Shown: positions 167 through 63,600 of the stretch, piece after piece
Numbering within the stretch: position 1 is the stretch's first letter
Layout of the letters: each line of letters opens with the position of its first letter
Assembly: GCA_964016885.1 (NCBI GenBank)
Contig: OZ024740.1
Coordinates: forward strand, 271,684,001-271,748,000
Direction of reading: 5' to 3'
Origin: Eledone cirrhosa
Lineage: Eukaryota
Length of the DNA: 64,000 nucleotides
The notes under the pieces: generated by a model
The model's database searches: none
Told to the model about the DNA's origin: nothing
Seen by the model: the letters and a program-made list of their open reading frames with translations, nothing else
Position numbers and translations under genes: made by a program

Positions 167-54443
<54,277 letters not shown>

Positions 54444-54460
54444 GGCGACTTACGAAAATT

Positions 54461-54517
54461 TTAAACTGTGTATAATTTTCTTGTATGTCTTTTCTTTTTC
54501 TTTTGGGGTTCAACCAT
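54461..54517 (-). other. Upstream ORF in the UPF1 5' leader (MVEPQKKKKRHTRKLYTV*)
   Basis: gttATGg context, 19 codons, TAA 17 nt upstream of the main ATG. Its presence in the mRNA is inferred. Confidence 0.55.
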
Positions 54518-55019
54518 AACCCAAACAGAAAACAGAACCAAGTGAAATACTGAAATATTGATATATGTATGTATGTGTATATATATATATATATAGATAT
54601 ATATGTATGTATGTATGTGTATATATATATATATGTATATATAAGCAATCAAATAGTGAAACTTATAGGGAAAAAGATAGAGAAACTATCAAAAGGAAAT
54701 ATTACGAATGTCGTTGATAAAACTGATTGCACAGAAATATATATAATGTGTGTGTTAACTGTATGTGGTCAGTGATTTTTTAATTTTTTTTTTCTTATCT
54801 AGGAGCAGTTATCATTTAGTTACACAGAAAAGAAATATATATGTAGGTAGGTATGCACACACAGGCATAAATGCGTGTGTGTATATATATATATTTATAT
54901 ATGTGTGTGTTAAATGGATGTGGTCAGCGATTTTCAAATTTGTGTGTGTTGTAGTTAATTTTTGTTATCTTGGAGCAGTTAATATAGTGTTTGTTTGTTT
55001 TCGAATTTCGTAAGAGTCA

Positions 55020-55300
55020 AGCAGTGGCGTTCTCTCGCAAGCACAACCCTTTCAGCACGCCATTTCCACAGCTGAATGTTGACGTCATAATACTCATGAA
55101 CTAGTGATACCGCAAAAAAATGTGTACCAATAGTGATGACGTAGTAAACAGCGACCATCTAACGTTCACCTCGAGCCACCGAGTCTCTTGTGGAAGAAGT
55201 TGTTAGGAAAGTAATTTTTTTTTTCTTCTTCACACATCTTCCGCATTCAATTGAAGGCAGCGAAGCGCAGCTAAACTCTCAATCATATCAGATGGTAAGT
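55020..55300. promoter_or_regulatory. CpG-retaining promoter region, probably bidirectional
   Basis: Perfect CRE TGACGTCA 55080-55087; second TGACGT near 55137; YY1-type CGCCATTT 55058-55065; TCTCGCAAG 55033-55041 (one mismatch to TCTCGCGAG); about 600 bp upstream of the UPF1 ATG. Confidence 0.6.
55215..55294 (+). other. Candidate first exon of a divergent gene, ending in ATG|GTAAGT
   Basis: Pyrimidine tract, unique CpG-containing leader, ATG 55292-55294 then a perfect donor GTAAGT; no downstream exon recognised in the window. Confidence 0.4.
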
Positions 55301-55759
55301 TAAGTTAATACAGATACACAGTGCTTAGTAATTAATTTACGCATATAGTTTTTAATGTCCCTCTGATATAGGTAAATATTACCCTATCAATAAACAAGTT
55401 AAAAGGCCCGTTCAATGTATTATATTATTGTAGTTAACTTTTGAATTTTGGCTGAAAAACAAACAAGCAAACCATGAATGCGAAATATTTCTTTAAAGTA
55501 ACTAAAATTGCTCGAAGTCTACTTCGGTTTAGATAGAACCGTCGTCTCGAAATGAAACCACGCCTCGTTTCCCATACATGCTGATAGTATGGCATTTTCA
55601 CTTTGGAATACTTTTATTTTGTGTTAATATCATGAAGGATAGGTTAAAAAATAACTTATTTTCGCCCTGTTAGGGTTTAATATAATATTTAGTTGCTGCT
55701 CTCTCTCTCTCTATATATATATATATAATAAGTTGACGGAACCAATGTATATATATATA

Positions 55760-60639: not shown

Positions 60640-63600
60640 ATCATCATCATCATCATCATCGTTTAACGTCCATCTTCCACGCTTGCATGGGTTTGGACGG
60701 GAGTTTTCCCACTTGAGGCAAGAGTGGTTGTCTTGCTTGCATAGGACGGTCTGGTGGGTTTTCTACGGCTGGATGCCCTTCCTAACACCAACCACGTTTA
60801 CAGTGTGGACTGGGAGGTTTTTACCGTGTTACCTACACAGCCACATTACAGCGTGGACTGTGTATTTTTTTGTCGTGACACCTACACGACCTCATTTGTT
60901 TCGGACTGGATGTTGTGGTACCGACAACTTTACATTGAATGGGTGGGGGTAGTGGGACGGGGGTGTATTTTTGTTAGAGGTGCCTACTGACTGTAGGTTT
61001 CGCTTTGCACTTAGGCAAGGCGGGTCTTCTGTATTACTGCGTAGCGCCAAAGATCTCGGTCCAGTGACATTGTCTTGGAGAGGTGTAAGTGTGTGAGGTC
61101 GGAATTTATCAAGTCATCCCAGGTTTTTCTGGGTCTGCTTACTCCGTGGCTACCATCTATTTTTATTGCCCTGCACTTTTTTATACAGCTGTCATCTTTC
61201 ATGCGCATCACGTGACCATACCAACGTAGTCTTCTCTCGAGTAAACAACATCTGATCCCTCTTATTTCTAATTTTTCCCTTAGTTCGTTTATGCTTTGCC
61301 GTTCACATATATTACTATTACACATCCAGCGGAGCATGCAAGCTTCGTTCCTCACCAGTCTGCGTATATCCTCTGCACACAATGCCCAGGTCTCACCGCC
61401 ATGCAACATTGCTGTTCGTATGCAGGCATCATACAGCCTGCCTTTCATTTTTAGAGAGAAGCCTTTAGTGGCTAATAGTGGTATAAGCTCTCTGAACTTT
61501 TTCCATCCAGTTCTGACTCTAGCTACTGTACTTTCAGAGCACCCTCCACCACTGCTGATTTTGTCACCCAAGTAACGGAAGGTATCCACTATTTCTATAG
61601 AACCATCTGTGCAATGGAATGAGCTAGTATTCTGTGGGCACTTGCTGCCACTTATTGCACCAGAGAACCGGCCACATATAAAATCTATATTCTTAGTTAG
61701 CTTACCTGTGATCCCACTACATCTTTTATACACCCATACTTTGCATTTGGGACATAAAATGGAGTTTCTACCTACTCCTTTCCTACACACTGAGCATGGC
61801 CATTTACCAGAGGGGACCAGTGCCCTATTTTCCTTCCTACAAACTAGAACTTTAGTCTTAGACAGGTTAATTTTAAGGCCTTTTAATTCTAGGCCATGCT
61901 TCCATGTTTGGAATTTCTTCTCTAGTTCAGCCATTGATTCAGCTATGAGCGTTAGATCATTTGCGTATAGGAGTTCCCATGGGCAGCCAGTCTTGAACTC
62001 CTCTGTTATAGCCTGAAGGGCAATAATAAATAGTAGGGGGCTAAGAACGGAGCCCTGATGAACACCAACTTTTACGCTAAACTCTTCACTATATTCGTTG
62101 TTAATTCTAACCTTGCTGACTGTTTATTTATACATGGCTTGTATAGCTCTCACAAGCCATTCATCAACACCTAGTTTTCTAAGAGCCCACCAGATAATGG
62201 AACGGGGGACTCTGTCAAAGGCTTTCTCCAAGTCAACAAAAGCTAAGTATAGGAGTTTACTTTTAGCTAGGTACTTCTCCTGTAGTTGTCGTACAATGAA
62301 AAGAGCGTCTGTGGTACTTTTACCTGACACAAACCCGAACTGCATTTCATCTAGATCAATTCACTCTCTGATTAGTTGCGCTATTACTTTTTCTGTCACC
62401 TTCATGACCTGGTCAATTAATTTAATGCCTCTAAAGTTACCCCTATCTAGGGCATCTCCTTTACCCTTGTAGCAGTTAATGATGATGCTGCTACGCCAGT
62501 CCTTCGGAACAACCCCATTCTATATGACTTGGTTTACTATCCGGGTGACCATGGTGTGTCCCACCGTTCCAGAAGCTTCAGCATTTCAGCAACTATTTCC
62601 GAAGGCCCAGCCGCGTTACCCGTCTTCATATCTTTGATTGCCTTACTTATTATACTACCTTCGACTAACACTGCTGGTCCCTCTATTGGATCGATGTAGG
62701 GGAGACTGTCTTTCTCCCATTTATTCTCCTCATTTAGTAGCCTTTTGTAGTGACACTTCCAAGCTACCTTCTTGTCAGTGTCTTTAATGATGATGGTGTA
62801 CACCATCATCATTAAAGACACACTTCTCCCCGACAATATCACGGTTTTCCTTGACACATTGCCTAGCAATCCTGAACACCTCACGTTTTTGGTCCTCGCG
62901 TTGTAGAACATGCTTAACTTTCTTTCCTCTGCTTCCCTTCTTGCGAAGTACACTTCTCTCCTAGCTTCCCTCCTGGCCACTTGATAGTCTTCTCTACTTC
63001 CCCCATCCCGCCATACTTTCCAAGCCTGCTTTTTGGCCTTAATTGACTCCTCCACCTTACTGTTCCACCACCATGTTACTCTCCTCCTGCCTATAGGCCT
63101 GCTCCAGCCACAGACTTCGTCTGCCGCCATCAGCAGGTTTGCTTTCAGGAATTCCCACTGTTCCTCTATATTGTACGACTCTATTTGCTCTTCCTTACTG
63201 TCGAAAGCATCAAGTAATATGCTTTTAAATTTATTACTGGCTGTGGAGTCCTTTAGCTTCCATATTTTTCTCCTGAGGATAGTCCTCTTCTGTTGTCGAG
63301 TATGTCTTGTCCTGACTATGAGGTCGCTAATTATCAGTCTATGTTGGGAGGTGCATTCTTCATGGGGAGGGATTTAGTGTTTACAACAGACACTCTGTCA
63401 CGTCTTCTGGTAAGGATATAATCTACCTGGCTGGTATGTTCCCCTGATCTGTAGGTGATCAAGTGATTGTCTCGTTTTTTGAAGTTAGTGTTACAGATAG
63501 TTGGGTTATTTACGTCACAGAATTCCAGGATTCTGGAGCCTTCCTCATTTCTAGTACCAAACCCATAGCCTCCATGGATTCCGTCATAGCCGTCACAATG

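What the first reader, a model, noticed from the sequence alone, without database searches (positions are those of the whole stretch)
54461..54517. Strong-Kozak polybasic uORF in the leader of the core NMD factor
Seen: gttATGg opens MVEPQKKKKRHTRKLYTV*, stopping 17 nt before the main ATG and 200 nt upstream of the first coding exon junction. It lies downstream of the nearest candidate acceptor (tttcag, AG at 54551-54550), so it stays in the mRNA whether or not that acceptor is used. Known: translated uORFs can trigger NMD, short intercistronic gaps disfavour reinitiation, polybasic tracts slow ribosomes, and NMD factors are feedback-regulated in mammals and plants. Inference: a uORF-based negative feedback loop on UPF1 in this lineage.
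Basis: partly seen in the sequence, partly recalled or inferred. Interest (0 to 1): 0.7.

Follow-up and report, generated by a model that had tools for sequence, protein, structure and literature searches.

The report
Short upstream ORF in UPF1 leader
A real 18-codon reading frame ends 17 bases before the start of an octopus-type UPF1 gene, the core factor of nonsense-mediated mRNA decay; it likely lies in a long, fast-changing mRNA leader and likely dampens translation a little, but a relative's transcript differs at that spot, so a dedicated feedback switch is unlikely.

Summary
The uORF is real (minus strand 54517-54461, 18 aa, 17 nt before the UPF1 ATG). RNA contigs make it likely part of the mRNA. 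But it is not alone. The leader is likely ~630 nt and unspliced, starts at a promoter shared head-to-head with a GLD2-like gene, and holds four uATGs, of which this is the last. A spliced UPF1 contig from a related organism leaves the window's sequence 9 nt above the ATG and shows neither the stop nor the A-rich tract in the 39 nt seen. The KKKKR run is rare (0 of 266 intron ORFs), but it is the reverse-complement arm of an adjacent T-rich tract and falls short of the published poly(A) stalling pattern. Nine other animal UPF1 loci carry closed uORFs at chance density, none polybasic and none overlapping the main ORF. What distant UPF1 loci do share is a promoter word, AATGGCGTG (3 of 9 plus the window), whose ATG opens a short uORF near the likely cap. 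Verdict: an ordinary, likely lineage-restricted uORF. NMD feedback on UPF1 is known in mammals, but there through its 3' UTR; a uORF route here is untested.

The parts
54461..54517 (-). The reported uORF, 18 aa; last of four uATGs in the likely leader
54261..54443 (-). UPF1 coding part of exon 1 (intron 1 runs ~33 kb to exon 2 at 21516)
   Evidence: spliced contig
54444..55075 (-). Likely unspliced UPF1 5' leader, ~630 nt; the 5' end is inferred from motifs, not mapped
   Evidence: RNA contig cover; ATG depletion on this strand
54488..54538 (-). Imperfect inverted repeat: T-rich arm 54537-54518, A-rich arm 54510-54490 (the KKKKR codons), uATG at the loop
   Evidence: -12.2 kcal/mol; 2% of 607 GC-matched intron windows fold as well, window chosen after seeing it; z -0.68 for the wider 120 nt
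54561..54643 (.). AT/ACAT microsatellite inside the leader
54746..54981 (.). Two diverged copies of a ~70-80 nt segment (about 54981-54901 and 54811-54746) that lengthen the leader
54812..54868 (-). uORF 2, 18 aa, T at -3
54795..54815 (-). uORF 3, 6 aa, T at -3
55052..55063 (-). uORF 1, MAC*, inside the shared word AATGGCGTG (YY1/TISU-like; label from PMC2518114 and recall); its presence in the mRNA is inferred
55055..55145 (-). Promoter cassette: two ACGTCA sites (CRE-like, label recalled), ATTGG, then AATGGCGTG; same arrangement above UPF1 in L005, L008, L012
55200..55294 (+). Likely non-coding first exon of a divergent GLD2-like gene; donor GTAAGT at 55295, spliced to an exon 14.5 kb away (L013:5811); 5' end approximate

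Best explanation
This is a real 18-codon uORF that likely sits in a long, unspliced UPF1 leader as a likely lineage-restricted by-product of that leader's low-complexity expansion, and it would trim UPF1 translation constitutively rather than act as a selected polybasic NMD switch. Shown: the ORF, the gene, RNA cover of the region, a different sequence above the ATG in a related organism, and the inverted repeat whose A-rich arm spells the basic run. Inferred: transcription starts near 55075; ribosomes scan ~630 nt past three earlier uATGs; some initiate at 54517, make the peptide without a lasting stall and mostly dissociate, because 17 nt is short for reinitiation; UPF1 is made by ribosomes that leak past. 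Any NMD sensitivity would be a modest side effect.
For: Run X19 holds 29 of 29 sampled words of 54261-54560. It behaves as RNA: it has a GT-AG spliced contig and no cover of 55295-55700. Its contigs cover 54650-54825 (running 79 letters past 54650) and 54915-55294 with no joint. The leader has 4 ATG on the UPF1 strand against 18 on the other; 0 of 51 equal-sized intron windows have so few. Organism D's spliced contig (16 differences in 192 nt) diverges at 54452; the 30 loose letters match the window at 5 of 30 positions and are T-rich in mRNA sense, with no ATG. Leader pieces of organisms C and D rejoin the window only near 54944-55007 and show indels; in a purine tract C has an ATG (reading MYTQKEE*) where D has ATA. 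The A-rich arm is a near reverse complement of the adjacent T-rich arm. It has at most 10 A in 12 nt against the 11-in-12 pattern (PMC4552401, passages). A strong-context complete uORF occurs in 66% of 620-nt intron windows. The neighbouring GLD2-like leader also has about 4 ATGs above its presumed start.
Against: The K/R run is rare in background (0 of 266). The uATG survives in a leader otherwise poor in ATG, has a purine at -3 and is predicted unpaired (0.87). The ATG shortage is partly compositional: 8.7 expected from base content, and 4 vs 10 without the microsatellite. In 7 of 10 UPF1 leaders a uORF ends within 30 nt of the start, against 3.9 expected (p=0.04). Only 39 of at least 58 leader bases of D next to the ATG, and 30 of 143-154 loose bases of the C and D upstream pieces, were seen, so an equivalent uORF elsewhere is not excluded; the visible purine tracts of C and D would read K-rich in one frame. 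Contigs give no strand, start or level.
Confidence: 0.55

Rival explanations
1. Class-level feedback with turnover: UPF1 leaders keep some closed uORF near the start, whatever its sequence, so that UPF1 mRNA stays partly NMD-sensitive; this uORF is the current occupant. The cap-proximal ATG in the shared promoter word may be the stable member.
For: All 11 loci (9 distinct leaders) have uATGs within 200 nt. Over 10 leaders including the window, 0 have an ATG frame running into the main ORF (5.4 expected, p=0.0005), while uATGs within 75 nt are not depleted (8 vs 7.8) and 7 end within 30 nt (3.9 expected, p=0.04). AATGGCGTG lies above UPF1 in 3 of 9 other leaders and occurs twice in 308 kb of own-genome strands. 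Spliced contig L011 begins 2 nt before that ATG.
Against: uATG density equals shuffled DNA, and the excess of late stops follows partly from purging overlaps. No control genes from the same organisms were available. Six of the 9 leaders are genomic only and may not be exonic. The uORFs opened by the shared ATG are 2, 3, 6 and 21 codons long, which fits conservation of a DNA site. D shows none in 39 nt.
Confidence: 0.22
2. One reading: this specific uORF is selected; strong initiation, slow polybasic elongation and poor reinitiation expose the downstream EJC and make a negative feedback loop on UPF1.
For: The geometry fits the EJC rule (PMC6173133, passages: junctions >=50 nt downstream). Translated uORFs are modestly NMD-associated in mouse ES cells (PMC3787261, section 7). 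The basic run is rare. The uORF of SMG5 is a precedent (PMC6680220, passages).
Against: Not present at that place in organism D; no polybasic uORF in 9 other leaders; below the A-run pattern for pausing; explained by an inverted repeat. For UPF1 the cited mammalian trigger is the 3' UTR (PMC6680220, passages).
Confidence: 0.1
3. The uORF is hardly used: most ribosomes skip it, or an abundant shorter or differently processed leader omits it, so it has no measurable effect.
For: TT at -2/-1 is absent from 9 of 9 other UPF1 start contexts; invertebrates prefer A-rich contexts (PMC2241899, passages). The depth of X19's UPF1 coding contig could not be compared with its leader contigs. UPF1 is generally essential (recalled), so heavy capture 17 nt before the start would be costly.
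Against: G at -3; RNA cover is continuous over the uATG by the word index; no strong donor lies between 55063 and 54550.
Confidence: 0.13

Closest known systems
NMD-factor autoregulation in human cells (UPF1, UPF2, UPF3B, SMG1, SMG5, SMG6, SMG7 mRNAs)
   Same: An NMD-factor mRNA with features that could make it an NMD substrate; the SMG5 uORF is reported sufficient in reporters (PMC6680220, passages).
   Different: For UPF1 the reported trigger is the 3' UTR. No NMD response has been measured here, and the uORF is not conserved at its position.
Ordinary translated uORFs associated with modest UPF1-dependent repression
   Same: Closed uORF fully upstream of the main ATG with downstream junctions (PMC3787261, section 7).
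   Different: Translation is not shown here.
Poly(A)/polylysine translational attenuators
   Same: A-rich lysine codons.
   Different: 10 A in 12 nt and a longest run of 5, against the 11-in-12 pattern of PMC4552401.
TISU / YY1 element
   Same: The cap-proximal word at 55063 has the ATGGC core in sense orientation; in 36% of human TISU genes the ATG is not the main start (PMC2518114, abstract and section 5).
   Different: 2 of 8 mismatches to the AAGATGGC core; the start site is not mapped; it concerns uORF 1, not the reported uORF.
ATF4/GCN4 delayed reinitiation (recalled)
   Same: A 3-codon first uORF and a later, potentially inhibitory uORF.
   Different: 534 nt lie between uORF 1 and this uATG but only 74 nt between it and the main ATG, so little stress-dependent bypass would be expected; it does not overlap the main ORF.

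Membership tests
uORF (sequence-level) | ATG-to-stop frame wholly upstream of the main ATG | tested here: met
uORF (sequence-level) | Lies within the mature mRNA | tested here: inconclusive
NMD-triggering feedback uORF (SMG5 type) | Translated | not testable with these tools
   no ribosome profiling available
NMD-triggering feedback uORF (SMG5 type) | Stop at least 50 nt above an exon junction | tested here: met
   200 nt; junction confirmed in a relative's spliced contig
NMD-triggering feedback uORF (SMG5 type) | mRNA rises on NMD inhibition in a uATG-dependent way | not testable with these tools
   needs knockdown or reporter
Conserved-peptide (stalling) uORF | Peptide, frame and position conserved in relatives | tested here: not met
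   absent at that position in organism D (39 nt seen); no polybasic uORF in 9 other leaders; only one close relative seen at this spot
Poly(A) attenuator | At least 11 A in 12 nt | tested here: not met
   maximum 10
TISU element (uORF 1) | AAGATGGC core | tested here: inconclusive
   GAAATGGC, 6 of 8
TISU element (uORF 1) | Located +5 to +30 from the transcription start | tested here: inconclusive
   L011 contig starts 2 nt before the ATG; contigs of C and D end near the equivalents of 55030-55050; contigs cannot map starts

The most novel reading that the evidence does not exclude
UPF1 mRNAs of molluscs and other lophotrochozoan-like animals keep a YY1/TISU-like ATG right behind the cap that opens a tiny uORF, plus a replaceable closed uORF just above the start codon; together these set a translation-coupled NMD feedback on UPF1 through the 5' leader instead of, or besides, the 3' UTR, from a promoter that in octopods also drives the mRNA-stabilising poly(A) polymerase GLD2.
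Probability: 0.1. Interest if true: 0.62.

Novelty: new member of a known kind. Interest (0 to 1): 0.27.

Why it matters
If the feedback reading held, it would show that NMD autoregulation of UPF1 can run through the 5' leader and has persisted by turnover of individual uORFs. Within the library searched, no paper holds 'cephalopod', 'UPF1' and 'nonsense-mediated' together, nor 'UPF1 promoter' with 'YY1', nor UPF1 with GLD2 and 'bidirectional promoter'. On present evidence the reported uORF is one of several in an AT-rich leader. The shared promoter word and the head-to-head GLD2-like neighbour are the more durable observations.

Tried and rejected
1) A 5' UTR intron ending at 54550 or just above the ATG: no strong donor between 55063 and 54550, no joint in RNA contigs, and D's leader letters have no match better than 13 of 19 in the 69.5 kb upstream. 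2) The uORF as an insertion relative to D: D's T-rich letters align best just above the uATG (54524-54538), but 5-14% of random windows score as well; unproven. 3) Homology of the purine tracts of C and D with the KKKKR tract: the best local hit falls there, but 16 of 130 and 62 of 130 control windows score as high; rejected as evidence. 4) The hairpin as a selected structure: z -0.68 over 120 nt. 5) ATF4-type bypass: the spacing is unfavourable. 6) Runs X19, X7 and X11 gave no laid contig on 54170-54559, which proves nothing; the two pieces of X2's contig are 18-21 nt, not colinear, and were set aside. No DNA run was laid as a control. 7) The two original papers on NMD autoregulation (PMC3222124, PMC4281029) are not held, so that point rests on review passages; no supplements were read. 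8) Earlier scan notes returned nothing. 9) The taxonomy of L005, L008 and L011/L012 is only approximate: the nearest of 25 named proteins were bivalve for L005 and L008 (short matches) and annelid, chiton or brachiopod for L011.

Full report
Observation. The minus strand at 54517-54461 encodes MVEPQKKKKRHTRKLYTV* in the context gttATGg. It ends 17 nt before the ATG at 54443 and 200 nt before the end of exon 1 at 54261. The 61 residues from 54443 match UPF1. Thirteen exons map within the window, the closest protein cluster contains named Octopus and Argonauta UPF1, and the last coding exon lies about 15 kb beyond the window's start.

Is it in the mRNA? One run search listed 24 runs. Four, of organism E, hold 29 of 29 sampled words of 54261-54560; the other 20 hold a share of 0.14-0.17. 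Run X19 (organism E) behaves as RNA: one of its contigs leaves the window at 55294, before GTAAGT, and continues at an AG-preceded exon 14.5 kb away, and nothing covers 55295-55700. Its contigs cover 54650-54825 (running 79 letters further towards the gene) and 54915-55294, with no joint. The stretch 55075-54444 has 4 ATG on the UPF1 strand and 18 on the other, and 0 of 51 intron windows of equal size have as few. Base composition alone predicts 8.7, so part of this is compositional. I infer an unspliced leader of about 630 nt.

The promoter. At 55145-55055 lie two ACGTCA sites and the word AATGGCGTG. The same arrangement lies 136-162 nt above the UPF1 ATG in L005, L008 and L012, that is 3 of 9 distinct leaders among the 11 loci, two of the nine being short transcript contigs. 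The word occurs twice in 308 kb of own-genome strands and never in 28 kb of the loci's downstream background. The spliced contig L011 begins 2 nt before its ATG. Leader contigs of organisms C and D end near the equivalents of 55030-55050, and C's contig of the opposite gene begins near 55200. This fits a bidirectional promoter. The opposite gene is GLD2-like: an exon further on matches solved GLD-2 structures at E=1.3e-8; its link to the spliced first exons is by position only. The YY1 and CRE labels are recalled; PMC2518114 (abstract, section 5) ties an AAGATGGC core at +5 to +30 to YY1 and to translation initiation. The reported uORF is therefore likely the last of four uATGs (55063, 54868, 54815, 54517).

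Conservation. A spliced 4492-nt UPF1 contig of organism D matches 54261-54452 with 16 differences, then diverges; 30 of its 49 loose letters were shown. In mRNA sense they are T-rich, hold no ATG and give no stop at -20..-18; they match the window at 5 of 30 positions. Upstream, C and D match the window only around 54944-55007, with indels, then run on into purine tracts. C has an ATG there reading MYTQKEE*, D has ATA. These tracts would read K-rich in another frame, and they align best to the uORF's tract, but no better than controls (16 of 130 and 62 of 130). If D's two contigs are adjacent its leader is about 290 nt, half of the window's, which carries a duplicated segment and an 83-nt microsatellite. 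Most of the C and D leaders was not seen. Among the nine more distant leaders, none has a K/R run above 1 within 130 nt of the start, against 5 here.

The basic run and the context. A run of five K/R is rare (0 of 266 intron ORFs). But its codons are the A-rich arm of an imperfect inverted repeat with the T-rich tract just above the uATG. The fold is in the best 2% of 607 GC-matched intron windows, chosen after the fact, and is unremarkable over 120 nt (z -0.68). The tract has at most 10 A in 12 nt; PMC4552401 (passages) proposes 11 in 12 for a measurable effect and ascribes pausing to the nucleotides rather than the peptide. The context has G at -3, but PMC2241899 (passages) finds +4G preferred in vertebrates and plants, not invertebrates. 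A complete uORF in such a context arises in 66% of 620-nt intron windows.

Results that favour a role. Across ten UPF1 leaders including the window, none has an ATG frame running into the main ORF (5.4 expected, p=0.0005), uATGs within 75 nt are at chance level (8 vs 7.8), and 7 have a uORF ending within 30 nt of the start (3.9 expected, p=0.04) (L007 and L011 were left out as duplicates of L006 and L012). Closed uORFs are thus tolerated near UPF1 starts. Without control genes from the same species this cannot separate tolerance from selection.

Mechanism. Most likely (0.55): ribosomes scan a long leader, a fraction initiates at 54517 and terminates too close for efficient reinitiation (about 78 nt is given as most efficient in the abstract of PMC6614817, seen in a search listing), and UPF1 comes from leaky scanning. 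The effect is a constant, modest brake, with at most incidental NMD sensitivity (PMC3787261, section 7: modest derepression of translated-uORF genes). All steps after the sequence and the RNA cover are inferred.

Comparison and verdict. NMD-factor feedback is known. [quoted passage not shown] D's contig implies a 3' UTR of at least about 1 kb if its protein has 1131 residues (my arithmetic), so that route is open here too. Library searches found nothing on cephalopod UPF1 and NMD, on a YY1 site in the UPF1 promoter, or on UPF1-GLD2 pairing; the library lacks most subscription papers. The element is a new member of a known kind, fails the tests for a conserved-peptide uORF and a poly(A) attenuator, and scores 0.27.

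Noticed in passing
window 55200-55294 (+), L013:5811 onward, L014:869-1099: UPF1 is head-to-head with a GLD2-like poly(A) polymerase gene across a promoter of roughly 150 nt; organism C has a contig matching the same first exon. An mRNA-decay factor and an mRNA-stabilising enzyme would share a promoter.
   Followed up: partly
window 55145-55055 (-); L005 -195..-140, L008 -186..-128, L012 -248..-154 from the ATG: Promoter cassette ACGTCA...ACGTCA/TGACGT...AATGGCGTG shared by UPF1 loci of distant animals; its ATG opens uORFs of 3, 2, 21 and 6 codons. L009 has a canonical AAGATGGCGG at -457.
   Followed up: partly
window 55292-55294 and L013:5811-5920: The GLD2-like leader has about four ATGs above its presumed start, one ending exactly at the first donor.
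   Followed up: no
window 54453-54448 (-): A consensus donor word GTAAGT lies 10 nt above the UPF1 ATG; its use would remove the coding part of exon 1. An older named Octopus model (P0129) starts MT followed by exon 2. No joint was seen.
   Followed up: no
window 42170-45027 (+) and 30831-32689 (+): Broken retroelement-like reading frames (endonuclease/reverse-transcriptase motifs, labels recalled) inside the 33-kb intron 1, antisense to UPF1; similar pieces at 61011-63373.
   Followed up: no
L002-L012, 130 nt above the UPF1 ATG: No uATG frame runs into the main ORF in 10 of 10 leaders (5.4 expected), although uATGs are not depleted.
   Followed up: partly
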